A DNA stretch of 53,426 bases, filler included, from Circinaria calcarea (lineage: Eukaryota), in assembly GCA_051942165.1 (NCBI GenBank). It is 3 parts of 3 records of this genome, joined end to end, with 100 filler letters (N's around TTAATTAATTAA, not from the genome) between each part and the next. Parts side by side here need not be neighbours in the genome. Positions count along the whole stretch, not along the records: positions 17,884 to 35,608 come from JAVECS010000257.1; 2 more parts are not named here. One strand, given 5' to 3'. Numbering within the stretch: the stretch's first letter is position 1; every line of letters starts with the position of its first letter. Shown here piece by piece: positions 17,784 through 38,090 of the stretch. The position numbers were made by a program, and so were the translations under genes. Under the pieces are notes generated by a model. That model had not been told where the DNA came from, did no database searches, and saw only the letters and a list, made by a program, of their open reading frames with translations.

Positions 17784-17883
17784 NNNNNNNNNNNNNNNNN
17801 NNNNNNNNNNNNNNNNNNNNNNNNNNNTTAATTAATTAANNNNNNNNNNNNNNNNNNNNNNNNNNNNNNNNNNNNNNNNNNNN
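17784..17883. other. Artificial contig-joining spacer N44-TTAATTAATTAA-N44
   Basis: Exactly 100 bp with a central 12-mer giving stop codons in all six frames; identical structure at 35609-35708. Confidence 0.97.
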
Positions 17884-18824: not shown

Positions 18825-19453
18825 TACCAAAGAGCCCGCTGATGTCATACCTACTCTTAGAAATGAAAGTCGGTACGGAGCTATCAGGAGACAGATTCTT
18901 TGATAGGACCAAATAATAGGCGGTGCTGCCAGAGCTTCAATCAGTTTACTGCGCCCCGATGAGATCACACTGTTGTTGTCTACCGCAATTTACACAGCGA
19001 AGGGCGGGCGAGCTCCATCATCCATGGCGATGCCTCTTCGCAAACGCCCTTTTTTGTTCCATTGGTAGGTAACTGCCAACGGGTTCCCCCGACGGTTCTT
19101 GTTATGTCCAAGATGGGTACCGCGCCTGCAGGGATCGCATGGTGTATCTGTGCAAAAAGGGCGAGCAAAGGGCCCCAGGTTGCAAAAGGTTACGAATACC
19201 TATGGGAAGTTATCAAAAGTCCCTCTTTTTAGTCGCTTGCAGTACCCCATCCTCGCGTAGTCAAATGCGTATATAGTCTCCCTTTCCCCCGTCTCCATTT
19301 GGTGCTTGGATCAGTCAAAAGCAATTCCGTTTGTCTTTCATAAATACCATTCGGTACTTAAACAGTCAAACCGATCTTTCTCCTTACCTATCAGTACTAC
19401 GGCCCTCATCGACCCGGACAAAGACCTATATATCCCCCTTACCTTTGACCGAG

Positions 19454-20134
19454 ATGGCCTACCCAAACCAAAGCTCCGATACATACACCTACCAAGAACC
19501 CTACTATCAGCAGTCGACAAATTCAGAGGTAAACGCCACCCCACACCTCCTATACATAGTACTAACTCTCATCCCTCCTGCTTAGACCCATCCATCCTCC
19601 GCCGAAGCCAGAGCCTACCAGTCCCCTTACTATCACGTCGACCGCTCCACCTGCTACACCCCCACATCCACCTCCTCTTCTGCCAGCACAGGGGCTTACC
19701 AGTCCGCCCATTACACTCAACTCTCTCCCTCATCCACCTACCCCCAATCTACCTCCTCTTCCTCCAGCACAGGGGCCCACCAGTCCCAATACTATCCGGT
19801 TGACCGCTCTGCCTATTACCATCTTCCTTCGTCCTCATCCACCACTTCTCACTCCAGCACCGGGGCCCACCAACCCCAGTACTACTCCCAAACCTCCTCC
19901 ACCTCCCCCTCTTCCTCGTTCCAATCCTACAACCCCATGCAACGTTTCGAAAACGAAAGCATGAGAGAGCAGCCCTGGAACGGAATTTCCGAGTTCCAAG
20001 CCATGGGGGAGCTGGCTAAGACGGAAAGAAAGGAGATGAGGAAAGAAGGGAAGAGGGATGGGACAGGAGGGAAGGGGTGGTCTTCTGCTACTGCGGAGAG
20101 GGGGAGCGGGAGTCGGAATCGAAGTGGGCGGTAA
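19454..20134 (+). CDS. Orphan 207-aa Ser/Tyr/Gln-rich protein with 4 imperfect internal repeats, 2 exons (19454-19528, 19586-20134)
   Basis: Intron 19529-19585 has GTAAAC donor, ACTAAC branch and TTAG acceptor. Spliced frame is open to TAA 20134 and absorbs ORF 19937-20134. Confidence 0.65.
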
Positions 20135-22779: not shown

Positions 22780-24035
22780 TTAAGAAGATAGAACGGTTTC
22801 TGGCCAATTGGGAAGAGTAAAGCCCTCCGTTTTCTCAACTATGCCCACACCGGCCATTTGGCTAGCAGCACCCTTCGAATCGATAATCTTAGCTGCAAAA
22901 CGCTCTAGCAACCTCATGAGCTCGTTCGGTCTTTCCAACTGAATCCAGTGTCCGCAGTCAAGCAGTTCAACTTGTAACTGAGGACACCACTCTGTCGATT
23001 TCATGATCTGCATGTCCGCGCGGGTAGCATAGTCAAGCTCCGATACAACCAACATTGTTGGAAGGGGGCATGATCTTTTCTCGGTCGGTACTGCATCCTC
23101 GTCTGCTGTGTTGACTCCTCGCATTGCAGCCTTGTACCAGCTTAGAGGCCCGCGGTAGCCACCTTTGGTTAGAATTTGATCCCGAACAGCGTACTCCTCA
23201 GCAGACACCCACGACGGCAGTGGTGTAGTCTTACCGCCGCCAACGAACGCTGCGGCTTTCCCTACAGGGCAGAAATCTGTCTTCCATAATTCAGGATCAC
23301 TTGGGTAGAGCAATGAAAAGACAGAAGCTGGCTGCAGATAGATTAGGGTTAGTTGAGGTAGCTTAAAAATGACAAATAGGAATTAACATACATCTTTGTC
23401 ACAAGACTTGACGGCATCCTCGGTATTGTGCCACGGCCAGTACCCATACGTTGCATAGCCGAAAAGATTTTGGGTGAGCTCGATGAACATATCTATTTTG
23501 TTAAGACATCTCATGGGAGCACGAAGAGAGGAACGTACCGATGTCCCACACAAGTCCTGGTTCCAAATAAGATACCGACAGTGGCACGATTCCGTAGAAT
23601 CTATCGGCATGGTATGTTGCGAGACGGGACATCAAACCAACGCCCCTAAACACAAGGAAACCTAATCAGCTCTTTCCCAAACCTCGTGGGTAAGAAACCA
23701 TACCAATCATGCGCAACGGCAATGCAGCACTGAATACTTTCTATATCAAGCAACTCGATCATGTGTCCAGACATTGCTTTCATGCGATATGCTCCAACAT
23801 CGTTCGGCTTATCTGTATCGCCATAGCCCAGGAGATCAGGCGCAATGAGGCCGTACCCGGCACTCTGGAGTCCACTGATTTGATGGCGCCAGTCGTAGCT
23901 TGATGAAGGGTAGCCATGCAGCAAGAGGAAATTGGGCTTGGTTGCCGCCGAAGGTGCGACATGCACATATCCATAAGTTGTTCCATCTGAAAGAGCTACC
24001 TTCTTGGCGAGCGATGGGAATGCAATAGACGCCAT
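22780..24035 (-). CDS. Alpha/beta-fold soluble epoxide hydrolase-like protein, about 363 aa, 4 exons (24035-23704, 23645-23539, 23492-23392, 23331-22780)
   Basis: HGYP oxyanion motif, nucleophile AHDWG (spliced), candidate lid tyrosines YGYW and LSWYKA, acid ELDYA, catalytic GHWIQLERP. Confidence 0.88.
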
Positions 24036-25491
24036 TACGAACTTCTAAATAGGAGATGACAATGGCTATGCAGACTTTTTGGATAGATTCTAAGAGCAAA
24101 ACGTTTGCTGCAATATATACGGGGTATACTCTCGAGCAAAGCCGGGTTAAGCCACCTACTCCACGCGGGCCGAGGACACCAATCTGTGTTCCATAGATAA
24201 GGAGCTTTCAGATTGGATGGCATCGTTCTTACAATAGCCTGCTTCATAGCGGTAAGGGGTGACGGAGCAGCTACCCAGCACCTGAACCAATATTTGGAGA
24301 TACCCGAGACCCGTAATACTTTCCTGATTAGGAAATCATCACGATTACCGGTCGTGTAATAGACGAGCTCCGAAGCCCTAGCTTCGAAGGTGATGCACTG
24401 GAGATGGTAGCTGCCGCAGGTGAGGTCGATGATTGACCGAGTGTAGTTCGTACAATCAGTTCTCACATGTAGCCCAAGGAGTTGACGTCGCTTCGAATCC
24501 TGCAGCTTGATAAGGTGATTCGAAAAGAACATCTTGCCCAACTGTAAGCAGTAGCCGCAAATGGCCTTCACTGTGTGGTTTTTTCAGTTGGCTTAAGGTA
24601 GGTGCAGCATCTGATCATCGTAGTAAATACGTTGGTCTCAGGCCGATGATGATAGTAAAGGGTTGCTGCAGTAGCGATTGAAGATCATATTGGTCACACA
24701 GTCACCTGATCTACAGAGTACCATACGGGTTTCGGTTTATTTCTAAAGCTAATCATCACGAGCGCATTGCCACACATACGGCGCTGCATAACGCTTTTCG
24801 ACTCCGGATTTGTTACCGCACACGAGTTTCAGCTCTATTGTCATTTTTCATTTGCTTTTGGGGCATGCTCCGTGTTCGGTGATACTGAGATAACAACCTT
24901 TACCACATTTCTTGCTATAGAGCAAAGCGGATCCGTCGTCATGCTGATGGCACATCTTGTAGCGTTAGAGAAGGATGGAGCCATATTTCAATCTCCAGGG
25001 TGAGCGCCGCATACCACGGCGAAGGTAAGGATGACCAAGCCACGGGCTTATGCTTTATGCCTAGGGTTTGGGTAACGATCTCGAGGGGAATAATCTTAGA
25101 TCGTTTATGATTCACAGGTATATATTTAGATCTTTTTACCGGGTCACTCGTTTCGGATATCACAAGCGGGAGCAATGCATATATGCGATGATGCGAGCAT
25201 GTTGTCAAAATACACGCCAGATGGGTATACAGATGGTAATCTATTAGCGCGGCAAGTTATTGCAATATATTCTACCCCAAGAGATCGTGCATGGGCGAGT
25301 AAAGCCGAAGGCTGACATACTAAATGATTTTGATGACAAAAGATACCACGTCTGCTAATCTACCTAGGGCCCATATCGGGTAAGCCATCTATGCCGCAAG
25401 ATCCATGCAGCAATCTCTGATAAACGCCAGTCAATAAATCAAGCCCATCCAAGCCCCATGGACGATCTAACATCCGAGCCGTGAGCCACCT

Positions 25492-27386
25492 TTACTTGGA
25501 CCCAGAGTCCAGGGTGATAAGTTCCTTCGGTGTAGACGGAACGCGCTTCGCCAGATACTCATCCAAATAGCCGTCATAGGCATGTGGGCCGTACGGCGAA
25601 AACAGTTCCGAGAGGAAGTTGCCCTTACGGCGGGACTTGACGCCTGCTTCACCGAGGAGTTTGTCAAGGTACTGTCAGCCGTCAGGTTAGTATCATTTAG
25701 TGCTTTGTGTAGGAAGGCCTCCTTACCGGAATCCAATCAAACAGAGCGTACGGGTAACGCTGGCCACAACTCGCATAGCGTTTACGTGTCCAGGCATTCC
25801 ATTGCGCAACCTCCTTGATCATACTGTCTTCATCAGGCAAAGGGACTTCGTCAAGCAGGTACAAGACACCCCAGAAGGATTGGATCTCTGAGATGGTCGG
25901 TGTCTGTGTTGTGTGGATCTGGCCAAGAATAACTAGTGAGCGATCTCCAGCGATGGCGTTAGTCAGGGGGACTATTCGGTTGTACAGCCTCCAGCGCCGC
26001 GTGGGCTGGACACGTGCAGGATGCCAGTTGCTGTAGTCTGGTCCACTGGCAAGAAGGGGAAGCTCCTTGTTGATATGCTTGTCAGCCGCGAGGTCGTGTT
26101 TCTCCCAGGCCATGTCGGCAGCTTCGGAGCTTGCAACGGTAGTCTTGCCGTATGAAGGGATTCCGAGCTCGGCTTTCAACTCAGGGGAGAAGATGCTGAA
26201 GTGATCGCCCCAGCCGGTGCAGGAGATGACTGTGTCGGCCTGGATTTCTTCGCCGGAACGGAGAACCACGGATTTCTCGCCAACAGTATCGATATTTTCG
26301 CGAAGGATTTTGAGGTTCCCTCCTTTAAGGGTGCTCCAGAAATCGTCGAGAGTCACTAGGCCGAGACTTGAGTCGCACCAGAAGGTACTATACTCATATC
26401 AGTACCAAGGTAATGTGAAAACGCGATTATGGAAGTACCTTCGATCCGGCATCATCGGCTTCAGCGCTGCAATATTCCCACCATCGTGGAATCCTGCAGC
26501 TTTATAGCTCTGATGCGTATTCTGTCTCCAGTGTGCATTAGTAAGCCACCTTCCTATCGATGTTCTGTAGAAGAAGTCGGCAAGCAGTCCCTTGCTGTTT
26601 AAAATCGAAGGACTAAGGTAGTTCATAAGTCGGGTAGATCCAATGGAAATTGTATTCATGCCGAGCATCTCAGCGGGCATGATAGGCATGGGCCCTGCAC
26701 CATCAGGTCGGATAATCCAAGTAATACGTTTACCCATGGAACACAAGAGATACACAGCGTCATACGCCGACTTTGCTGCACCAACAACAACTACACTGTG
26801 GACATCGTCTGAACCAAACTTTGGAACATTTGCTGCAATGTCCACCGAGTGGATTACAGGGATCGAATTCTTCTCAATCTTGAATGGCGGCACATTAGGA
26901 ACAGAAGTCAAGCCGGTGGCAACAATTAACTTGACGGTCTCAATGTAACCGTCCCCAACCTTCAACCTCCAACCTAGAGGGCATCTCTCGGCCTTCTCAA
27001 CCCAAGTGCTGAATCGAATACGGCGTAGGAGGTCATGATCCTCGGCGTACTTCTCCAAGTAATGCTGAATCATGAAGCCAGTGACAAGATGATGATCAGT
27101 TTCGCCTGTCTTGGGCATTGGACGGTCCGGATAGTTGAAGAGACCATGGGGAACCTGAGCAACGAGATTGGGATAAATGCGCTTCTTACTCCAGACACCA
27201 CCTACGGAATCATCAGATTCGATGATCGTGAGGTTCGTCTGCGGTTCAAGCTTCAGGTAAGTCTTGGCTGCTGAGAGCCCGTACCATCCTAGGACGTCAA
27301 TCAGCATCAGAAGTTGCTACAACATATGAGAACAGACCGGCACCGATGATGACGACGTCGAGGACCTTGGTTGGCTGTGGTGCCAT
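25492..27386 (-). CDS. FMO-like (class B) FAD/NADPH monooxygenase, about 579 aa, 4 exons (27386-27338, 27288-26439, 26387-25727, 25671-25492); DEP4-like
   Basis: MAPQPTKVLDVVIIGAG|WYGLSAAKTYL FAD-binding, VGGVWS, LIVATG, IHSVD fingerprint variant, VVVVGAAKSAYD NADPH-binding, VISCTGW. DEP4 resemblance is recalled, not searched. Confidence 0.88.
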
Positions 27387-28318
27387 TGCGAGTATTGATG
27401 AATGGGATACGTCGGGACTTCAGTAGCACTTCTGGCCGAGGATTAAAAGGTTGATGATTCTTCATCTTGGAAGAGAGACGGCACGAATAATGGTCTTTTA
27501 ACAATCTCTCGGGATTATCTTGATTCTCCCTTAGCCAATTCAACATATCCGGCCCGAAAGCTGTCTTAGGTTCTTGAACGCTCGGGGCAGCCAGCTCGGT
27601 GGAGATCGCTGGGGTAAAGCTACACGTAGAATTTATACGAGTGTAAACGGCAGTCATTGTGCGGCATGCAAGATTACTAATCTGCTTACTCCGTACGTGT
27701 TGCATATCACATGGTATATACAACATGATATGACAAGGCTGATCTTGGAGGCTCTTACAGAAATACTTCCATAGTTGGCGGGAATCCTTCCGGCCTGTCC
27801 ACTCTGCGATGCGGCATCCTCCGAGGTCATACAGCTCCCACGCCATGTATGCAACTTGCACCGGGATCAACGTGTTCATAGCTAATCTGTGGGTTCTCCT
27901 CCGGTCGTGTACACCGCTGCTCTAGGGTAACGACTTACGCTCTTTCTCCCATTCCTATGTTAGGATGCTGATTAGCCATGGCAGGAGGCGTACTATCCGG
28001 AAATGGCTCAGGAAAAGCGTCTATTGTTTTAACGCTAATAATATCTCATTCACCGCAACCATGTCGTATAATCTCGTCGTTAAGGCTAGGTTACGCGTCT
28101 GGTGCTGTACCTACTATCTACATCTGCTGTCTGTCCATTGAACCCACTCTCGCGGTCCGAGTTTTCTTTCAGGCTGCACAAGATGGTGGGGTGTCGGTAT
28201 CAATGGAGGACCGAGTAAATACGTCAATGTGCTATGATGGTTTATAAAACACAGGGCCAGCCGGCTTCTATTCTTCCTACGGCAATGCCATCTATCCTTG
28301 ATATCCTTGAATAACAAT
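27387..28318. promoter_or_regulatory. Bidirectional promoter region shared by the monooxygenase and the PKS
   Basis: Head-to-head ATGs at 27386 (-) and 28319 (+); TATAAAA at about 28243 upstream of the PKS. Confidence 0.6.
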
Positions 28319-31300
28319 ATGCCATACATTATAGAAGCCGCGGCGGGCGACACCTTGTTGGAGCCAATTGCCATCGTTGGCATGGGTAAGCGTTCCCCGA
28401 CATGATTTGATGGCTGTATCAGTCGAGTTGTGTGTCGAGTATACTGATACTCCATAGCATGTCGGCTCCCAGGATCCGTCGACTCTGCGTCATCCCTATG
28501 GGATGTGCTCAAAGAGAAGAAGTCGGTTCAGACTAAGAAGGTCCCGGCCAACCGTTTTAATATCGACGCCCACTATCATCCAGACCTCTCCCGACCTGGT
28601 AGCTTCCACGCTGAAGGGGGCTACTTTCTCGAGGGCGACCTTGCGGACTTTGATCCCACTTTTTTCGGCATGACTCCAATTGAAGCCATGTGGCTGGATC
28701 CACAGCAGCGGAAGATGCTCGAAGTCTCTTACGAATGTCTCGAGTCAGCGGGTCTTTCACTAGAAGTAGTGGCCGGTAGCAATACCGCCGTATTTGTGGG
28801 TAGCTTCACGAGTGATTACCAGCAAATGTCCACCCGCGAGCCTGATTTCCGGCATAACTACACAGCTACTGGCGTTGACGTAGGCATCATCAGCAATAGG
28901 ATTGGAAATACGTTTAACTTGAATGGTCCTAGGTAATCCGCGGTCTAGTCGCTTGATCTGATATACTTATCTAATATTTGTTAGTTTCACTATTAATACC
29001 GCATGCTCATCTTCGATATACGCCATCCATAATGCGTGTCACGCTCTACGTACCGGAGATTGCGAAGCTGCGATTGCTGGTGGGGTTAACTTGATCCTCA
29101 CTGTTGATCAGCACATGAATACTGCCAAACTGAGTATTCTTTCACCAACATCGACGTGTCATACTTTCGACAGCTCAGCCGACGGCTATGGACGAGCAGA
29201 AGGTGCTGGCGCGCTCTATCTCAAGCGCCTTTCTGATGCCGTCAGAGATGGGAATGTCATCCGTGGAATCATACGCTCTTCGGCCGTTAACACAAATGGC
29301 AAAGTTGAAGGCATGGGACTCACTCATCCCAGTGTTAAAGGACAAGAGACAGTGGTCCGCAAAGCTTACGAACGTGGAGGTCTCGACCCCAACAAGACAG
29401 CCTACCTTGAGTGCCATGGAACAGGAACCCCAGTCGGTGATCCTATAGAAGTTCGGGCGGTATCAAACGCCATGAATGATACAAGAAGCCCAGATGCACC
29501 GTTACTGATCGGTGCTATCAAAGCAAACATAGGTCACAGCGAAGCAGCAAGTGGCATATTCGCTGTCATGAAAGCGGCCATGGTGACCGAGTCAGCCATA
29601 ATACCTGGCGTCTGTGGTCTCCAAAATATTAACCCAGCCATCAAAGAAAGTGAGTGGAACGTGAAGATTAACGTCGACACAAGGCCCTGGCCTAAGGAAT
29701 TCGAAGTTCGAAGGGCTAGTGTCTCATCATTTGGTTATGGCGGAACCAATGGGCATATCATCGTGGAGTCTGCCGATGGATTATGTCCTTGGTATGAGCA
29801 TGGAAAGCCAAAAGCCATCGCAAAATATCAATATAATACTGCCAGACCGTTCTTGATTGGACCATCGGCTCACGATAAGAAAACTTTGGTCAGGAATATC
29901 GAAGCTTATCAAAAGATCGTTAAGGATTTCTACCTTCCTGACATCGCATACACTCTCAATTCGAGAAGAACGAGATTCTCCAATAGGGCTTTTATCATTA
30001 CAGCCGAACAGCAAGAAGCTAGTGCCTTCGATACTGGTTCCTTCACGTTTGGGGTAGCAAGTTCCCGTCCAGTGAAACTCGGGTTTATATTCACTGGTCA
30101 AGGAGCACAATGGCCAGGCATGGGGGTTGAAGCTATGAGAACCTTCCCTGCCTTTGGACGGACGATTGACGCACTCGATGCTGTCTTGCAATCAGTTTCA
30201 CCGGCCCCAACCTGGACACTAAGGGAAGCCCTTGAATCGCCTAAGGAGTCGAGCAGGGTTTCGGAAGCCGAGATCTCCCAACCTGTGTGTACTGCAGTTC
30301 AAATAGCCATAGTGGATCTTTTTGCATCATGGAATATAAAACCTGCCGTGACAGTTGGCCATTCATCGGGCGAAATCGGAGCAGCATACGCAGCAGGGCG
30401 CTTATCAGCTCCAGAGGCTATCTTGGCCGGTTTCTTTCGTGGTTTGGCTGTGAAAAAGGCGGCACCCGTTGGCACTATGCTTGCGGTAGGTATCGGTGCA
30501 TCTGCAATACAGCAATATATCCCTGAGTTAGTTGCTGAGGAAGTGACGATAGCCTGCGAAAATTCTTCCAGCAGCGTAACTTTAAGCGGTCTTTCTCCGG
30601 GTATCATTATTGTCAAGGAACGGCTCGACAAAGCTAAAATTTTTGCACGGGAACTTCCTACAGGAAAGGCCTATCATTCGTCTCAGATGAATGCTGTCGC
30701 AACTCTTTACAGTACGCTATACACGAGGGCCTTTAATACCCTTGACGATATTGATTTCGAATGGCGTCAACCAAAAGCCCCCATGGTCTCTTCTGTTACC
30801 GGTAAGCTATACACGAGGGACGATATCTCCATTCAGTACTGGTGTGATAATCTCAGAAGCCGAGTTTTGTTCGACTCTGCCATGACGACTCTGGGACAAT
30901 CGGAGTTATTCTCAGATGTTAGTTATCTAGTTGAGATTGGACCTCATTCTGCTCTAGCTGGACCAATCAAGCAGATATGTTCCGCGAACGAATTCAGCCA
31001 TCTTGCATATACCCCAACATTAACTCGTGGGTGTGATAGTTCTGTTGCATTGCTCAAAACTGCGGGCGAGCTTTACATCAAAGGACTATCCGTCGACTTC
31101 CAACAGATTAATCGTATTGAAGATTCTGCAGATCCTCTTTCGGGCAGGAAGCAAAACTTACCTCGATATCTCGTCGACCTACCCCCTTATCAGTGGAATT
31201 ATGAGAAAAATTTCTGGTATGAACCTCGATTTAGCCACGAGCAAAGACGTTCGAAATTTGCACGACATGATATTCTTGGGAGAAAGATATTCGGTCTGTC

Positions 31301-34300
31301 CGACAATTCTCTTACCTGGAAAAACACTTTACGTCACAAAGACGTCCCATGGCTAAAAGATCACCGCCTTGGTGATGCAGCTGTTTTCCCTGGAGCAGGC
31401 CATTTCTCCCTTGCGGTCGAGGCTTATATGCAAGCCTTGGACGTTGATGAGGACAGTATTGCGGGAGTTACCCTGCGCGACGTGAATATCAAAGCAGCTC
31501 TTATCATCCCCGAAACCGACGATGGAATTGAAATCCAGACAAGAATGCAAAGAGTTTCCCAATTTGGAAGCGATAGCGTTTGGTATGACTTCACAGTGGA
31601 GTCAATTGATAATGGTGTATGGACAACACATAGTAAGGGGCGGATTGGTATGAACCTGGTTGAACGCCCCTTTAAACAGGACTTCGACTGCCCTATCAAG
31701 CTTAATAAGCTTCATCAACACACATTAGCCAAGCGATGGTATGACTCATTCAATCTTGTTGGTTTCGAGTATGGTCCATCTTTTCAAACCCTCAGCCATA
31801 TCCGGACAAACGGCAAAGATCGGGCTGCAGCGGCGGATGTATATGTTACGAACGATTGTAGATTGATGAACAAGGAGTCTCGGTATATGTTACATCCTTC
31901 AACAATAGATGGCTGCCTCCAACTCCTCAACGTGTCAGTTCATTCAGGGCTTCATAAGGACATGCCGTTCGGTGTTGTGCCCCTCGAAATGGAGGAGATT
32001 AGTCTTTTCTTCCCTGGCTCAGACTGCGCTATTGATGGTAGTGCAGTGGCATGGACTGATAACACCAACGGCCGCTACTTCAACACCAACATTCAACTAC
32101 TTGGTACCTCTGGCAAGCTCATCCTCGATATCAAGAATCTCCGCAGTGTGTCATATGAAGCTGCTGTTCCTCAGCGCCGTTCAGATATGCCCACTCGACA
32201 ACCATACTCACAGATTTCCTGGAAGCCGGATATTACCGCATTGTCGGACGTCCAGGCGAAGAGCGTTTTCCCATCAAACGTTCAAAAGGACCAGTGTATC
32301 GCAAGAATGATCGAGCTATTGAATCATCAAAAACCTGTACAGAATACACTCATCCTTGGGAATGCGTCGATACATATGTTGTTAGCTGTCAGAAGTTCAA
32401 TGCTGACTACGTCGATATTGACGGTCGGCTTAACTTCAGCAAAGGAAGCTGAGAAGCTCGTTTCAGAAGTAGAGGGCTTAAATATTTCAATGTTTGTCTT
32501 ACCAGATGATAACTTAGAGCTTGCTGAAGCCGTTATCGAATCCCATGATCTCTTCATTCTTGATGAGAGTCTAATCTCGCGAGCATCTACTTCGGATTTG
32601 GTCAACAAGCTCAATTCCAACGCAGTGAAGGGAAGCCACATGATTGCTTATTTGCAATTATCTGATATGAAAACAGCTATATCTAACTCGATCGGATTTA
32701 CGCCGCCTCAACTTTCTATTGATTGCGGAAGCGTGAACATCATGTTAGCAAGCGCAGAGCCACACCAAAACAGAGTCGTACACCTCCAACGACGAATTGC
32801 AATCCTCTCGCATTGGAGTCCCGACGCAGTATCTAAAAAACTTGCTGAGAAGTTTCAAGAGAACGATTGCGGCATTCTTCTGTCCAAGATCGACGAAGCC
32901 AACATTGCCAATGTCAACGAGATTATCATAAACGACTGCCATGGAACTTTCCTGTCCGCTCCTACCAAAAAGTCTTTCAATGCCCTCAAGGTCGTTCTCT
33001 GTTCCGGGAAATCGATTGTCTGGCTTACTAAAGGGGTCAATCAGGGTAATACCATATCCGGTGGAATGAGCCAGGGGTTTCTTCGTGCCGTTCGGTCTGA
33101 GCAAGCTGCAGCCAGAATTGCGCTGGTGGATATCGATGAGGACGTGACCATTGAGGATGTGACTCCAATCCTTCTTGACAAACTTGAACACAATAGTGTA
33201 AAGGATTCCGGACTCGACACAGAATTCTGGATACGAGGTTGCGGTATCGTACATGTGCCTCGGCTTATCTCGCAAGACGCCCTTAACTTACCCCTTTCGG
33301 ATGACATAGTGTCAGCCATCAGCGTACCAATTGATGAAAATGTCGAATACGAAAGCTCCATCAACGGTAATGATCTCGTCTTCGAGCCTAAGCGCAGCTC
33401 AAGTGGCGATAAAGATCTTGATGTGCTTGAAGCCGAAATACAAGTCATATACTCGGAACTCAGCGCAGAGGATCTAAGTACAGGCTCTCAAAGACCACGC
33501 ATTGTACTCGGAAAGGTCCTCGATATTGGGTCAGGGCTTGAACAGTCGTTAGTGGGCCAGGAAGTTGTCACATATATTAATAGATGTTTCGAGACTAGAA
33601 TAAAGTCCTCAGCTTTTGTTAGAATATCGACAGCTGCGGATGCATTACCTGAAGCTCCGCAATTCATCGCCACTTTGCCCAACCTCTGCAAAGCCATCGA
33701 TGCTATTGTCAAGACCGGAAAAGCCAGGAGTGGAGATCATGTGCTCTTATTACCTTCAGCGTTGCCCTTCGTGGATGCTGTCGCTCGACTCAGCCGTGTC
33801 CTTAGCTTCCAATTCTCAGCTGTGGTTATGGATGCAGAAGAAAAAGATGAGTGCATTGCCAGATATCACCTTGACAGCGCGTCATTGCTTTTGGCTAAGG
33901 ACGTGGAGGCTATTCGAGAACTTATGACTTCAGCGGCTGCTCCAAATGTTGTGATCGCACATTCTTTCTCAGCGCTTAGCCAAGAGACCTGGCGGTTCAT
34001 GGCTTCTATGGGCAGGTTCGTGCTATGTGACGCTGCTATAGACGTGCCGCTAGATACACTCCCGTTCACCAAGGGGGTCTCATTCTTGACTACTGGAATT
34101 TCCACAAGGTTCACGAGAGATAAATCTTCGTTGAACGATTTACTTCAATCAGCCGTTGAGCTTATTTGTGGTAATAGCGATACTCTGACGCGGAATCCGC
34201 TCGTTATGGATATCGGGAGGCTTAGTGATCTTCAAAACGCTCGATCAGATGGAGCGCTACTGGAACCGAATGTTCTCAAGGTCTCTTATGGTGAGAGCAT

Positions 34301-35585
34301 CATCAAAGTAGGTATTCCTTCAATTTTTGTGAATCGCAGGCTAAGATTTGATTATAGACGAGAGAGACACAAGAGAATCTTAAATTCTCTTCAACTGCAG
34401 CATATCTTCTGGTCGGCTGCCTTGGTGGTCTTGGTCGGAGTTTGACTACCTGGATGCTGGAACATGGATGCAGAAATTTCGTCTTTCTCTCCAGATCAGG
34501 TGCAGATAAACCTGAGGCCGCGGAAGTGGTCGGCTCTCTGCGGAAAGCAGGAGCATCAGTTCAAATATTCCGTGCTGATGCTGGCGACAAAAAGGCTGTT
34601 GCAAACGTCCTTTCGATTGTTAGCTCGACGATATCTATTCGCGGTGTGGTTCATGCTGCCATGGTTCTTCAAGTAAGCCATATTTCTGCATCAATCACAA
34701 AACAAGGCTAATTTTGAACAGGATGGGATGTACGAAGGAATGTCTTTTGAGAAGTACATTTCGGCCGTCTACCCAAAGATGCTCGGTGCTATAAGCCTTC
34801 ATGAAGCGTTGAATAACACCCCGTTAGACTTTTTCGTCATGACAAGCTCCATCTCTGCAGTATTGGGCAACCCAGGACAAGCGAATTATTGCGCTGGAAA
34901 CAGCTACCTCGAGGCTCTCGCCTGGTATCGCCGTAAGCATGGCTTAGCAGCCAGTGCTATCGCCCTACCCATGGTCCTAGACGTAGGAGTCGTTGCCGAG
35001 AATCAAGACATCGAACTGTCTCTGAACCGCAAGGGCATGTACGGCATCGACGAGCGCGAGATGCTCGCTGCCTTCGAGGCCGGCATGCGTCAAGGTCCTC
35101 CCAAAGACGGTCAGGCACATATCGGCGAAGCACAAATCGCTCTCGGTCTCGATCCAGCGTCTCTTGCAGCAGCCGTTTCATCTCAGGATACTGCAAACGT
35201 CTACTGGTATAATGACGCCCGCCTCAACAACATCCGTGCGGCTGTCGAGGCGCTGAGCACCTCTGGATTAGACACCAGCGGCTCTGCCGCTGCTGGCTTT
35301 GTCGGCTCGCTTACAGGTAAGAGTCCACAAGTGGTGATTGAGAGCATCGGAGAGTACATCATCAAGCGGTGCTCCAGCATCTTGATGCTCCCGGCCGAGA
35401 ACTTCGAAATGGAGAATAAGTCGGTGGGGTCGTATGGGTTGGACAGCATGATCGGCGCGGAGCTGCGCACGTGGTTGTTCAAGGAATTTGGGCTGGAGAT
35501 TGGCTTTCAGGTGCTGTTAGGGCAGACATTGACGTTCACTGCGCTGGCGAAGATGGTGGCGGAGGTGTTGGGGTTGCTTGGGTAG
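28319..35585 (+). CDS. Iterative type I reducing polyketide synthase KS-AT-DH-(degenerate ER)-KR-ACP, about 2347 aa, 5 exons (28319-28385, 28458-28932, 28985-34307, 34358-34672, 34722-35585); DEP5-like
   Basis: KS EPIAIVGM, DPQQR, NTACSSS, HGTGT, GHSE; AT GQGAQW, GHSSG, AYHS; DH DHRLGDAAVFPG and IDGCLQ; KR GCLGGLG, VLQD, YCAGN; ACP GLDSM. Spliced length 7044 nt is divisible by 3. Confidence 0.96.
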
Positions 35586-35608: not shown

Positions 35609-35708
35609 NNNNNNNNNNNNNNNNNNNNNNNNNNNNNNNNNNNNNNNNNNNNTTAATTAATTAANNNNNNNNNNNNNNNNNNNNNNNNNNNNNNNNNNNN
35701 NNNNNNNN
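35609..35708. other. Artificial contig-joining spacer N44-TTAATTAATTAA-N44
   Basis: Same 100-bp six-frame-stop linker as at 17784. Confidence 0.97.
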
Positions 35709-38090
35709 AACAAATGCTAATGTCTGATCCCACATGTCACGATTGACACTCCTTTTCCATTTAGTCTCGAGATATTCGATCCACCAATTCAACCACGGGG
35801 TAGTCGATGTGTTCCAACTCATGCTGGGCCTTTGAAACAGGAGACGCCAGTACTCGATGGCGGCGTCTAGTTGGACGGCCTTTTGGCCGGGGCTGCGGGC
35901 CAGGACAAAGGTGTGCTTATAGACGCGCTTGAAGAAGGATTGATCATTTGCGAGGTTGTGCCGTAGAGTAGCCATGTGGGCTTGTTGTTTCGAGAGGCTG
36001 TCTGCATTGTGAAACAGCCAGTATGAGACAAAGCTTTCGCGGCTAAGTTCCCCCATGATTGGCGCGTTGAGTTCGGTGAGAATGGCAAGCACGGCGACTT
36101 CATCAAGGTTGACGCCAAGATCACCGAGGTACTTGATGGTGCCGTCGACCTCGATAGTGTGGGGACTCTCCTTCGGGTCATCTATGGTACCTAGTCAGCG
36201 GGGTTTACAATCAGCTTAGGATGATTTCCATCGTACCTCGATATCTGTCGAACAGCTTGTGTACATTGGACGCCAATGACGATCCCGATTTACCCGACGA
36301 GGCACTCTGCACTTGAAAAAAACTAGTATAGAAATGACCATTGTTAGCAGGGATCCTCCGCTTCCGCCATGCTCCCAGGGTAGCAGGATTTATTGAGACA
36401 GTATCGTCAGCACTCTCATCTTCCGAGAGATAATCAACCGCCGGCGTGCTACAGCCGCCCTTTGTCTGTTGCAAGGAGGAGGCTGTTGTAATTGTCATGC
36501 CAGCAAGCCTACGTAACTCCTGGATAGCTTCCCCATCACTGCCGAAAGCATTCGACCTAGGGCCCTTGGACTGATCCAGTGCGCTCGGCGTAGCATGAAC
36601 ATAGCCTTTGAGTGGTGAGGGCTGAACATTCTCCTTGTCCCAAGGAATCCTAGTGTTGAGCGTTGCTTTCTGGATCTCCCTTACACCGGGCAGACCAACC
36701 TTTGCTCCTAACTTGCGAGATGCGCGTGAAGACATGCTTAACCCCAAAAGATCTTTGGTATCAACTTTGTCTGGAGGATCAGGTGTAGAAAGTGAGAGAT
36801 TCCGGAAAGTATCACTGGGCTCTGGAGCAGAGGGCAGACTTGCTTCGAAATTCTGTATGATATCCACAACGTTTGCCGAGAGCCGTGGTTCTGTAGCTGA
36901 AGCTGTAACCTCAACGCCGAAGTAGCAATCTGCAGGGACCTCATTCTCATGGAGTTTCATCGATAACTCTCGATCGGAAATGTTTGGCATGCCCAGCTCT
37001 GCGCGGAATCTGGATGGGGCGTCCTCGAAAGGAATTACGGATGTCATTACATCCTTGTGAATTGCTTGCAATCTCGTTCGAATACCGAGTTTGAGCCTAA
37101 GAGTAGGCACTTTATCTGCGTCCCATTTTCGTTTGAGCGTCCCCTTTTCTTGATCGTGATGATCTTCAAACCAAGGATCAATCCCGTAGAATTTGAGCAT
37201 TTTCAGGAATTTTTTTCGTGGCATCGCCAAACGATGGATCCGATATCTGAACATCAAAGGAAGTTTGCGCCATGTTATCCAGTGAGACGGATCGTCGGCC
37301 TTGGCCATCCAATCTGTAAACTTCTCCTTAATGCAGACATGGTAAAGCCTTCTTTGCTCTTCTAACCATTCTCGCACCCACACCCTGTCTATTGGCTTCT
37401 TTACAGCGGACAGTACTTCTATCATACGCTTCCCTTCCCAAAATCGTTGGTGAACGGGCATCTTCTCCAGCGCGTCTTGACAATACTCCGGAAGGTATTC
37501 AATAAGCATTTGATAATTTGCAAGTTCCTCGTCTAGCGGATGATCTTTTTCGTTACGAGACACGACATAGCCACCCTGGGTCACGACCACGAGCTCTCGC
37601 TGGGAGCGCGTCCACCCATCCTCTTCCAATTCTTTGCCTTTTTGACTCGGCTGCTTCATCTCACTCGCGTTTGCCATGTCCTTGAGTGCCACTGTCGGTA
37701 TTTCCAGAGAGGGGCGCACCTTGAGACCAGGACTGCCTTTGCAGATGTAGGAACCTGTAAACTGCCGAGACTAGATGGGTACTTGTGGCATGATGCTGCC
37801 TAGGTACAACCAAGGAAATTGATGTAAAGAAATGCACATACGCGTTTATGGCTTGCTCAGCGTTCCACCCAGTCAACTTAAGTTGCTAGGGAAATGAGCG
37901 TTAGCACTTAAAATAGCTCTTGCCAAATTGGACGAGGATCATTAGTGTGACAAAGACCGCTGTGCCCACAGTACAGGATAGCGCTGGATGGGGATATACT
38001 CACTTTCGCAGCTACGCTCTCCTTTGCAGAGGTAACGGAGGTGAACTGGGCGATTGCACTCCTCTGGGATGGAGTGTAGGCTGGTGGCAT
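35709..38090 (-). CDS. DCN1: Defective in cullin neddylation protein 1 (UBA-like + PONY domain); exons 38090-38004, 37885-37842, 36322-36237, 36181-35709 (3' end cut by spacer)
   Basis: MPPAYTPSQRSAIAQFTSVT...QLKLTGWNAEQAINA|FFQ...LFDRYR|DDPKESPHTIEVDGTIKYLGDLGV...MGELSRESFV...FKRVYKHTFVLA...GQKAVQLDAAIEYWRLL...SVNRDMWDQTL. All junctions are GT-AG and in phase. Confidence 0.92.
36323..37770 (-). CDS. Long stop-free ORF (about 482 codons; first ATG 37677) inside DCN1 intron 2, in frame with DCN1 exon 3; unknown protein
   Basis: ORF-track entry 36211..37719 (502 aa) reads through the DCN1 branch point and acceptor into FFQVQSASS...LFDRYR. No recognisable domain. Confidence 0.65.

What the first reader, a model, noticed from the sequence alone, without database searches (positions are those of the whole stretch)
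22780..35585. Depudecin-like PKS + FMO core with an added epoxide hydrolase: candidate new polyketide pathway
Seen: a reducing PKS and an FMO-like monooxygenase transcribed divergently, followed by an epoxide hydrolase with a complete catalytic set. Known: the depudecin cluster (DEP1-6) uses PKS DEP5 and monooxygenases DEP2/DEP4 to make a bis-epoxide HDAC inhibitor and is not described with an epoxide hydrolase. Epoxidase-plus-hydrolase pairs build cyclic ethers and diols in the aurovertin and citreoviridin pathways. Inference: from recalled similarity the PKS and FMO belong to the DEP5/DEP4 clades, and the hydrolase either converts epoxides to diols or cyclic ethers (a new product) or gives self-protection. 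No DEP1/2/3/6 equivalents are visible on this contig.
Basis: partly seen in the sequence, partly recalled or inferred. Interest (0 to 1): 0.75.

Follow-up and report, generated by a model that had tools for sequence, protein, structure and literature searches.

The report
Conserved PKS, monooxygenase, epoxide hydrolase cluster
A lichen-type fungus carries an intact three-gene polyketide cluster (synthase, flavin monooxygenase, epoxide hydrolase) that recurs as a unit in many other fungi, so it is a real but fairly ordinary genome-mining target with an unknown product.

Summary
Window 22780-35585 holds three intact genes. They are a 2347-aa reducing PKS (KS-AT-DH-KR-ACP, no ER or MT), a divergently transcribed 579-aa FMO-like monooxygenase, and a 363-aa hydrolase just downstream of the FMO. 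The hydrolase is of the soluble epoxide hydrolase type and has the full catalytic set. No transporter, transcription factor or second monooxygenase lies within 14-44 kb, and the identified flanking genes are housekeeping genes.

The hydrolase is not a local addition. PKS, FMO and hydrolase lie within 8 gene numbers of each other in 15 of 17 other species checked. All linked cases fall in one well-supported clade ("A") of both the PKS and the FMO trees, and the hydrolase tree shows the same groupings. Automated annotators use the names DEP5 and DEP4 for members of clade A and of its sister clade, so DEP is the nearest named relative. I could not obtain authentic DEP sequences, so clade membership stays untested. 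Three of the tested DEP cluster features are absent. The aurovertin and citreoviridin hydrolases are membrane-bound enzymes of a different kind.

The likely function is PKS-made unsaturated chain, FMO epoxidation, then hydrolase opening to a diol or cyclic ether. The product is unknown. Interest is modest.

The parts
22780..24035 (-). Epoxide hydrolase gene, 363 aa. Exons 24035-23704, 23645-23539, 23492-23392 and 23331-22780 (stop included).
   Evidence: The model was built from tblastn with orthologs and read off the sequence. Introns are 58, 46 and 60 nt, all GT-AG. Pfam finds Abhydrolase_1 and Abhydrolase_6. HGYP, Asp110, Tyr159, Tyr246, Asp280 and His308 are conserved in 26 of 26 relatives. 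The ortholog matches human soluble epoxide hydrolase at E = 1.8e-39.
24036..25491 (.). Spacer between the hydrolase start and the FMO stop. No gene was detected.
   Evidence: The ORFs of 70 aa or more in this stretch that were sent to Pfam have no match.
25492..27386 (-). FMO-like flavin monooxygenase gene, 579 aa. Exons 27386-27338, 27288-26439, 26387-25727 and 25671-25492.
   Evidence: The spliced translation is identical to P0001. Introns are 49, 51 and 55 nt, all GT-AG. Pfam finds FMO-like at 49.2 bits and Pyr_redox_3. The FAD motif GAGWYG spans the first intron. The nearest PDB relatives are class B FMOs and Baeyer-Villiger monooxygenases, only at E about 1e-7.
27387..28318 (.). 932-bp divergent spacer between the FMO and PKS start codons. 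Presumed shared promoter.
   Evidence: No significant motif is shared with the hydrolase upstream region.
28319..35585 (+). Reducing iterative type I PKS, 2347 aa. Exons 28319-28385, 28458-28932, 28985-34307, 34358-34672 and 34722-35585. Domain order is KS-AT-DH-(711-aa linker)-KR-ACP.
   Evidence: Pfam on P0121: KS 1.2e-66, AT 6.5e-47, PS-DH 3.3e-26, KR 3.1e-58, PP-binding 1.5e-4. Active-site motifs are present in every domain. The linker has no PDB match at E <= 1 and only a weak PF23114 hit (E = 0.012), so no ER or MT was detected. The model is open and equals P0121 except at the first splice junction.

Best explanation
This is a minimal, self-contained three-gene biosynthetic cluster for an oxygenated, partly reduced polyketide.

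The PKS has ketoreductase and dehydratase domains but no enoyl reductase or methyltransferase. It should build an unbranched chain carrying double bonds and hydroxyls (inferred from the domain set). The FMO-like enzyme then epoxidises one or more of those double bonds. This is inferred from the obligatory hydrolase partner and from what FMOs do in the aurovertin-type pathways. The soluble alpha/beta-fold epoxide hydrolase opens the epoxide through its Asp110 nucleophile, Tyr159/Tyr246 clamp and Asp280-His308 relay. The outcome would be a vicinal diol or, if a chain hydroxyl attacks, a cyclic ether (chemistry inferred; catalytic residues shown).

The three genes are inherited, and apparently moved between lineages, as one unit. 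That unit defines a clade ('A') separate from a sister clade of PKS-FMO pairs that lack this hydrolase.
For: Shown by tools:
- All three genes are intact and have their active-site residues.
- No other biosynthetic-type Pfam domain lies between 14 and 44 kb. The flanks are Sla1, PMT, ATP synthase e, WD40 and Clr5 on one side, and DCN1-like, Mvp1/Snx8, AAA and Utp8 on the other.
- PKS and FMO hits share organism and contig length in 37 cases among 120 + 120 listed hits.
- The hydrolase lies within 8 accession numbers of the PKS or FMO in 15 of 17 other species looked up. It is directly consecutive in C. destructivum (WQF87668/69/70) and Xylaria digitata (KAI0533357/58/59).
- The FMO tree has a 23-row clade holding the window (FastTree 100; IQ-TREE SH-aLRT 100 on 63 of the 120 rows; still 100 with 12 outgroup rows). 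Ten of its 23 rows are hydrolase-linked, against 0 of the 97 other rows.
- The PKS tree has a 35-row clade (100). It holds every PKS paired with a clade-A FMO and all 9 hydrolase-linked PKSs, against 0 of the 85 others.
- The hydrolase tree repeats the same groupings: Truncatella with AK1849; Penicillium cinerascens with Xylaria; Seiridium with Bisporella, Monosporascus mg162 and Apiospora (compared).
Against: - There is no expression, product or enzyme data of any kind.
- That the FMO is an epoxidase is inferred, not shown. Its PDB relatives are distant (E about 1e-7).
- No thioesterase or reductase release domain, transporter or regulator was found, so chain release is unexplained.
- In Beauveria bassiana the orthologous hydrolase is on a different contig from the PKS-FMO pair. 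One Monosporascus case is ambiguous.
- Linkage was read from accession order and contig lengths, not from DNA.
- The 17 species were chosen because a hydrolase hit already existed there. Twelve of the 23 clade-A FMO rows have unknown hydrolase status.
- The hydrolase search covered only proteins of 110-350 aa.
Confidence: 0.6

Rival explanations
1. It is an ortholog of the depudecin (DEP) cluster. It makes depudecin or a close analogue, and the hydrolase either converts the bis-epoxide or protects the producer.
For: Automated annotations name clade-A relatives 'reducing polyketide synthase DEP5' (P0145 in C. liriopes and a C. shisoi member) and 'FAD-dependent monooxygenase DEP4' (P0293). The PKS has no ER or MT domain, which suits an unsaturated linear chain.
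Against: Only one monooxygenase is present, and there is no MFS transporter or Zn-cluster regulator. The DEP4 name is also given to a sister-clade protein (P0014), so names do not resolve orthology. No Alternaria protein is among the 120 best PKS or 120 best FMO hits, although lower hits were not listed. Passages of PMC10455296 say putative DEP clusters have DEP5 homologues above 65% identity, and I could not compute that figure for this PKS.
Confidence: 0.12
2. The hydrolase is a general detoxification or housekeeping enzyme that merely sits beside the PKS-FMO pair.
For: Soluble-type epoxide hydrolases are a large family: 160 PDB sequences match at E <= 1e-10. The B. bassiana ortholog is unlinked. 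No shared promoter motif was found.
Against: Linkage holds in 15 of 17 other species across several fungal classes, and the hydrolase tree matches the PKS and FMO groupings.
Confidence: 0.1
3. The alpha/beta hydrolase is the missing chain-release enzyme (thioesterase or lactonase) rather than an epoxide hydrolase.
For: The PKS ends in ACP with no release domain, and no other hydrolase is present.
Against: The nucleophile is Asp in an HDWG motif, not Ser. Both lid tyrosines and HGxP are invariant, which is the epoxide hydrolase/dehalogenase signature.
Confidence: 0.05
4. In this lichen fungus the trio builds the enoate and 4,5,6-triol end of aspicilin, the macrolide typical of Circinaria. The route would be epoxidation of a dienoate beside a hydroxyl, followed by hydrolysis.
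For: The window's proteins are identical to proteins annotated from Circinaria calcarea. Passages of PMC12137943 say Circinaria is the only group of its family that may contain aspicilin, and PMC12113121 lists it as a macrolide. The triol logic fits an FMO plus hydrolase (inference; the structure is recalled).
Against: Aspicilin's long saturated chain (recalled) needs enoyl reduction, and the PKS has no ER. The same trio occurs in many non-lichen fungi not known to make aspicilin.
Confidence: 0.05

Closest known systems
Depudecin cluster of Alternaria brassicicola (DEP1-DEP6; PKS DEP5, monooxygenases DEP2 and DEP4)
   Same: It is the nearest named relative according to third-party annotation of clade-A proteins. 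Both have a reducing PKS paired with a flavin monooxygenase and presumed epoxide chemistry.
   Different: The window has one monooxygenase, not two, and no transporter or regulator. It carries a conserved soluble epoxide hydrolase. No paper in the searched library holds 'depudecin', 'gene cluster' and 'epoxide hydrolase' together.
Aurovertin, citreoviridin and asteltoxin clusters (AurA-D, CtvA-D, AstA-D)
   Same: They share the logic of polyene PKS, FMO epoxidation and hydrolase-mediated epoxide opening (PMC12312803 passages).
   Different: Those PKSs are KS-AT-DH-cMT-KR-ACP and come with an O-methyltransferase and membrane-bound hydrolases. Here there is no cMT domain and no methyltransferase gene, and the hydrolase is a soluble alpha/beta-fold enzyme.
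Soluble epoxide hydrolase family (e.g. the human sEH C-terminal domain, PDB 6fr2)
   Same: The alignment runs full length at E = 1.8e-39. HGxP, the Asp nucleophile, two lid Tyr, and the Asp and His of the relay are all conserved.
   Different: The fungal enzyme is a single domain, is embedded in a PKS cluster, and has an unknown substrate.
Uncharacterised PKS-FMO-hydrolase trios in public fungal genomes (e.g. Colletotrichum destructivum WQF87668-70, Xylaria digitata KAI0533357-59, Xylographa bjoerkii)
   Same: They have the same three genes, fall in the same PKS, FMO and hydrolase clades, and share the adjacency.
   Different: The window's PKS keeps a linker segment of about 165 aa that six other clade-A PKSs lack. 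Some relatives have 4-7 further genes between the hydrolase and the PKS or FMO.

Membership tests
Depudecin (DEP) cluster | PKS and FMO orthologous to authentic DEP5 and DEP4 | not testable with these tools
   No tool returned the Alternaria brassicicola proteins. They are not among the 120 best hits. Only automated 'DEP5' and 'DEP4' names on other species were seen, in both clade A and the sister clade.
Depudecin (DEP) cluster | Two flavin monooxygenases (DEP2 and DEP4) | tested here: not met
   Only one monooxygenase-type Pfam match appears in the window. That there are two is stated in PMC8620734 passages.
   No MFS, Zn-cluster or fungal transcription-factor Pfam domain appears in any ORF scanned.
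Depudecin (DEP) cluster | DEP1 (protein of unknown function) | not testable with these tools
   No DEP1 sequence or profile was available.
Soluble-type alpha/beta-hydrolase epoxide hydrolase | HGxP oxyanion motif, Asp nucleophile in a small-x-Asp-x-small motif, two lid tyrosines, Asp-His charge relay | tested here: met
   HGYP 40-43, Asp110, Tyr159, Tyr246, Asp280 and His308 are present. They pair with Asp335, Tyr383, Tyr466, Asp496 and His524 of human sEH through the ortholog alignment (the human numbering is recalled).
Reducing iterative type I PKS | KS Cys-His-His, AT Ser, DH His/Asp, KR Tyr and NADPH motif, ACP Ser | tested here: met
   The motifs TACSS, HGTGT, NIGH, GHSSGE, DH His and HPSTIDGCLQ, GCLGGLGR, NYCAGN and GLDSM are present. 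Pfam domains are all above their cut-offs.
Highly reducing PKS with ER and/or cMT | Enoyl reductase or C-methyltransferase domain | tested here: not met
   The 711-aa DH-KR linker has no PDB match at E <= 1. Its only Pfam hit is PF23114 at E = 0.012, in a scan with E up to 10.
Class B flavin monooxygenase (FMO-like) | Pfam FMO-like above cut-off; N-terminal FAD GxGxxG; second dinucleotide-binding motif | tested here: inconclusive
   FMO-like scores 49.2 bits against a cut-off of 22, and GAGWYG is present. The second motif is a degenerate GAAKSA, read. PDB relatives appear only at E about 1e-7.
Aurovertin/citreoviridin-type FMO + hydrolase pathway | Membrane-bound hydrolase, PKS with cMT, O-methyltransferase gene (PMC12312803) | tested here: not met
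   The hydrolase is a soluble alpha/beta fold. There is no cMT domain and no methyltransferase gene.
Clade-A PKS-FMO-hydrolase trio (operational group defined here) | PKS, FMO and hydrolase each in the clade that holds the linked cases, and the three genes adjacent | tested here: met
   See for the trees, and for the coordinates.

The most novel reading that the evidence does not exclude
The trio is a distinct, old and horizontally mobile three-gene pathway family whose product class has not been described. In it a soluble epoxide hydrolase does the job that a conserved multi-pass membrane protein does in the sister ('DEP-named') PKS-FMO clusters. That would be a non-homologous swap of the epoxide-opening partner. 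In Circinaria the trio could even supply the triol-enoate end of aspicilin.
Probability: 0.15. Interest if true: 0.55.

Novelty: new member of a known kind. Interest (0 to 1): 0.35.

Why it matters
The cluster needs only three genes, is bounded by housekeeping genes, and recurs in culturable fungi. It is therefore an unusually clean target for heterologous expression. Success would assign a product to a cluster family that automated pipelines currently label 'DEP5/DEP4' by similarity alone. It would also show whether a soluble epoxide hydrolase can shape fungal polyketides the way the membrane-bound AurD-type enzymes do. For genome annotation, the result warns that a 'depudecin-like' label covers at least two deep sister clades with different partner genes.

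Tried and rejected
- Authentic DEP4 and DEP5 could not be obtained. All three word-index searches went on the window's own genes. The representative search returns no names. Two papers were not held: the DOI tried and PMC6510388.
- Paper searches for a characterised PKS + FMO + epoxide hydrolase cluster of this type found none. Searches gave 0 papers. Searches gave 45 and 10 papers, none describing this trio judging from listings and the passages read. One search was swamped by unrelated 'DEP' terms and was useless.
- Treconorin, Hypoxylaceae and asperlin clusters were read as passages. They have different gene sets (P450s, an ER-containing PKS).
- The aspernidgulene (sdg) cluster could not be checked. 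Only reference-list and table entries were seen.
- Shared promoter words between the hydrolase upstream region and the FMO-PKS spacer: two 11-mers against 0.29 expected, with a maximum of 4 in 200 shuffles. This is not convincing.
- ESM Atlas on the membrane extension of P0015 gave only unnamed ascomycete clusters at 0.89, a lead only.
- A tblastn search of that membrane protein against the window found nothing credible (best E = 0.012, inside the PKS on the wrong strand).
- No fungal genome DNA collection was available, so neighbourhoods were inferred from accession order.
Full report
**What is there.** The window is fungal DNA with short GT-AG introns. Between 22780 and 35585 lie three intact genes.

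- PKS: + strand, 28319-35585, five exons, 2347 aa.
- FMO-like monooxygenase: - strand, 27386-25492, four exons, 579 aa. Its spliced protein is identical to P0001, annotated from a Circinaria calcarea assembly.
- Alpha/beta hydrolase: - strand, 24035-22780, four exons, 363 aa.

The FMO and PKS start codons face away from each other across 932 bp. The hydrolase follows the FMO on the same strand after 1.46 kb.

**The enzymes.**

- PKS. Pfam gives KS, AT, DH, KR and ACP, and the active-site motifs of every domain are present. The 711 residues between DH and KR match nothing in the PDB at E <= 1. Their only Pfam hit is a weak PF23114 match at E = 0.012. I therefore read the enzyme as having neither an enoyl reductase nor a methyltransferase.
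- FMO. It passes the Pfam FMO-like cut-off (49.2 against 22 bits) and has an N-terminal GAGWYG FAD motif that is split by the first intron. Solved structures are only distant relatives, at E about 1e-7.
- Hydrolase. It belongs to the soluble epoxide hydrolase type. Its 82%-identical ortholog P0242 aligns end to end with the human enzyme's hydrolase domain at E = 1.8e-39. HGYP, Asp110, Tyr159, Tyr246, Asp280 and His308 are present in the window's protein and in 26 of 26 aligned relatives; the Gly of HGxP is at 25 of 26. The claim of a complete catalytic set is correct.

**Surroundings.**

- Pfam scans covered the main ORFs of 90 aa or more over the whole window (33 ORFs outside the cluster, 16 in and beside it) and a further 71 ORFs of 70 aa or more between 14 and 44 kb.
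- They found no transporter, transcription factor, P450, methyltransferase or second monooxygenase.
- One flank carries Sla1, a protein O-mannosyltransferase, ATP synthase subunit e, a WD40 protein and a Clr5-domain ORF.
- The other flank carries a DCN1-like gene starting about 76 bp after the PKS stop, then Mvp1/Snx8, an AAA ATPase, Utp8 and Mhr1.
- The cluster is therefore just three genes.

**Relatives.**

- The PKS and FMO are a very widely conserved pair. Among the 120 best PKS hits and 120 best FMO hits, 37 pairs share organism and contig length.
- The hydrolase search returned 45 proteins. Accession numbers from three look-ups place the hydrolase within 8 gene numbers of the PKS or FMO in 15 of 17 other species.
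- Consecutive or one to three genes apart: Xylographa bjoerkii, Colletotrichum destructivum, C. tofieldiae, C. liriopes, Xylaria digitata, X. multiplex, Monosporascus sp. GIB2, Seiridium unicorne, S. cupressi, Chaetomium fimeti and Bisporella sp.
- Five to eight genes apart: Truncatella angustata, Xylariales sp. AK1849, Diplogelasinospora grovesii and Penicillium cinerascens.
- In Beauveria bassiana the hydrolase is on another contig. Monosporascus sp. mg162 is ambiguous.
- Accession order stands in for gene order, because no fungal DNA collection was available. The species were picked because a hydrolase hit existed, so 15 of 17 is not an unbiased frequency.

**Trees.**

- The FMO tree splits into a 23-row clade A that holds the window and a 97-row remainder. 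Support is FastTree 100, IQ-TREE SH-aLRT 100 on 63 of the 120 rows, and again 100 with 12 outgroup representatives added. In that last tree A plus a small Letharia group (98) is sister to the rest (90). The outgroup rows have long branches.
- Ten of the 23 clade-A FMOs are hydrolase-linked, one is unlinked and 12 are unknown. None of the 97 others is linked.
- The PKS tree (first 1300 residues) mirrors this. A 35-row clade (100) holds the window, every PKS paired with a clade-A FMO, and all 9 hydrolase-linked PKSs. None of the other 85 is linked.
- The hydrolase tree repeats the internal groupings of clade A, including ones that cut across taxonomy. Penicillium cinerascens sits with Xylaria, and Bisporella sits with Seiridium. 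The three genes have therefore travelled together, probably with some transfer between lineages.
- At 50% clustering the whole A+B family collapses into two representatives (60% and 50% identity to the query). The next relatives are at 43% or less.

**The DEP question.**

- Automated annotation calls the clade-A trio of C. liriopes 'DEP5' (GJC78246), 'DEP4' (GJC78247) and epoxide hydrolase (GJC78249/50). The name 'DEP4' is also given to a Lachnellula protein of the sister clade.
- DEP is thus the nearest named relative of both clades. The names cannot say which clade, if either, holds the real depudecin genes.
- At cluster level, three recalled or cited DEP features (a second monooxygenase, a transporter, a regulator) are absent.

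**The aurovertin analogy.** Passages of PMC12312803 describe AurD, CtvD and AstD as membrane-bound hydrolases. They act with a cMT-containing PKS and an O-methyltransferase. None of that is present here, so the resemblance is in logic, not in family.

**Mechanism.**

- Most likely (0.6): the PKS makes an unbranched unsaturated hydroxy chain, the FMO epoxidises it, and the hydrolase opens the epoxide to a diol or cyclic ether. The residues and the linkage are shown. The chemistry is inferred. Chain release is unexplained.
- Rivals, in order: a true DEP ortholog; a bystander or detoxifying hydrolase; a release hydrolase; and, for this lichen, a role in aspicilin. The last is argued against by the missing ER.

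**Novelty.** No paper in the searched library describes this trio. However, the cluster already lies in many public genomes and follows a known logic. I rate it a new member of a known kind, of modest interest. It is attractive mainly because three genes are easy to express.

Noticed in passing
window 17784-17827, 17840-17883, 35609-35652, 35665-35708: Four runs of 44 N form the same pattern (44 N, 12 bases, 44 N) at two places. The second starts 24 bp after the PKS stop and overlaps the 3' part of the DCN1-like ORF.
   Followed up: no
window 28385-28472 (PKS first intron): The public model P0121 uses a later acceptor and loses the conserved 'ACRLPG' of the KS N-terminus. The acceptor at 28457/28458 restores the motif seen in five homologs and gives 2347 aa instead of 2342 aa.
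   Followed up: yes
window 22780-24035: The public annotation of the same species lists only a 216-aa C-terminal piece of the hydrolase (P0241, starting at a Met in exon 3). The full four-exon gene encodes 363 aa including the nucleophile.
   Followed up: yes
window about 32280-32780 (PKS residues about 1275-1440): A linker segment of about 165 aa is shared with four sister-clade PKSs but is missing from the six other clade-A PKSs compared. It looks like a deletion that marks the rest of clade A.
   Followed up: partly
relatives P0015, P0030, P0033, P0066 (not in the window): Four of the 97 sister-clade FMOs carry a mutually homologous N-terminal extension of about 280 aa. It is hydrophobic, looks multi-pass, and has no Pfam family. 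It has no counterpart in the window. It may be the sister clade's partner protein in place of the hydrolase. PMC13386531 (abstract seen) reports an FMO with a fused transmembrane region in verrucosidin biosynthesis.
   Followed up: partly
window 19261-20134: Overlapping + strand ORFs here are rich in Tyr, Gln, Ser and Pro, with repeated 'STGA(Y/H)QS..YY' units and no Pfam match. This may be a low-complexity gene between the Clr5-domain ORF and the cluster.
   Followed up: no
window 36214-37770 (- strand): A 519-aa open frame with no Pfam match lies next to the DCN1-like gene.
   Followed up: no
trees: Groupings inside clade A disagree with taxonomy in the same way for PKS, FMO and hydrolase. 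A Penicillium sits inside a Xylaria group, and a Leotiomycete sits with Seiridium. This hints at transfer of the whole cluster.
   Followed up: partly
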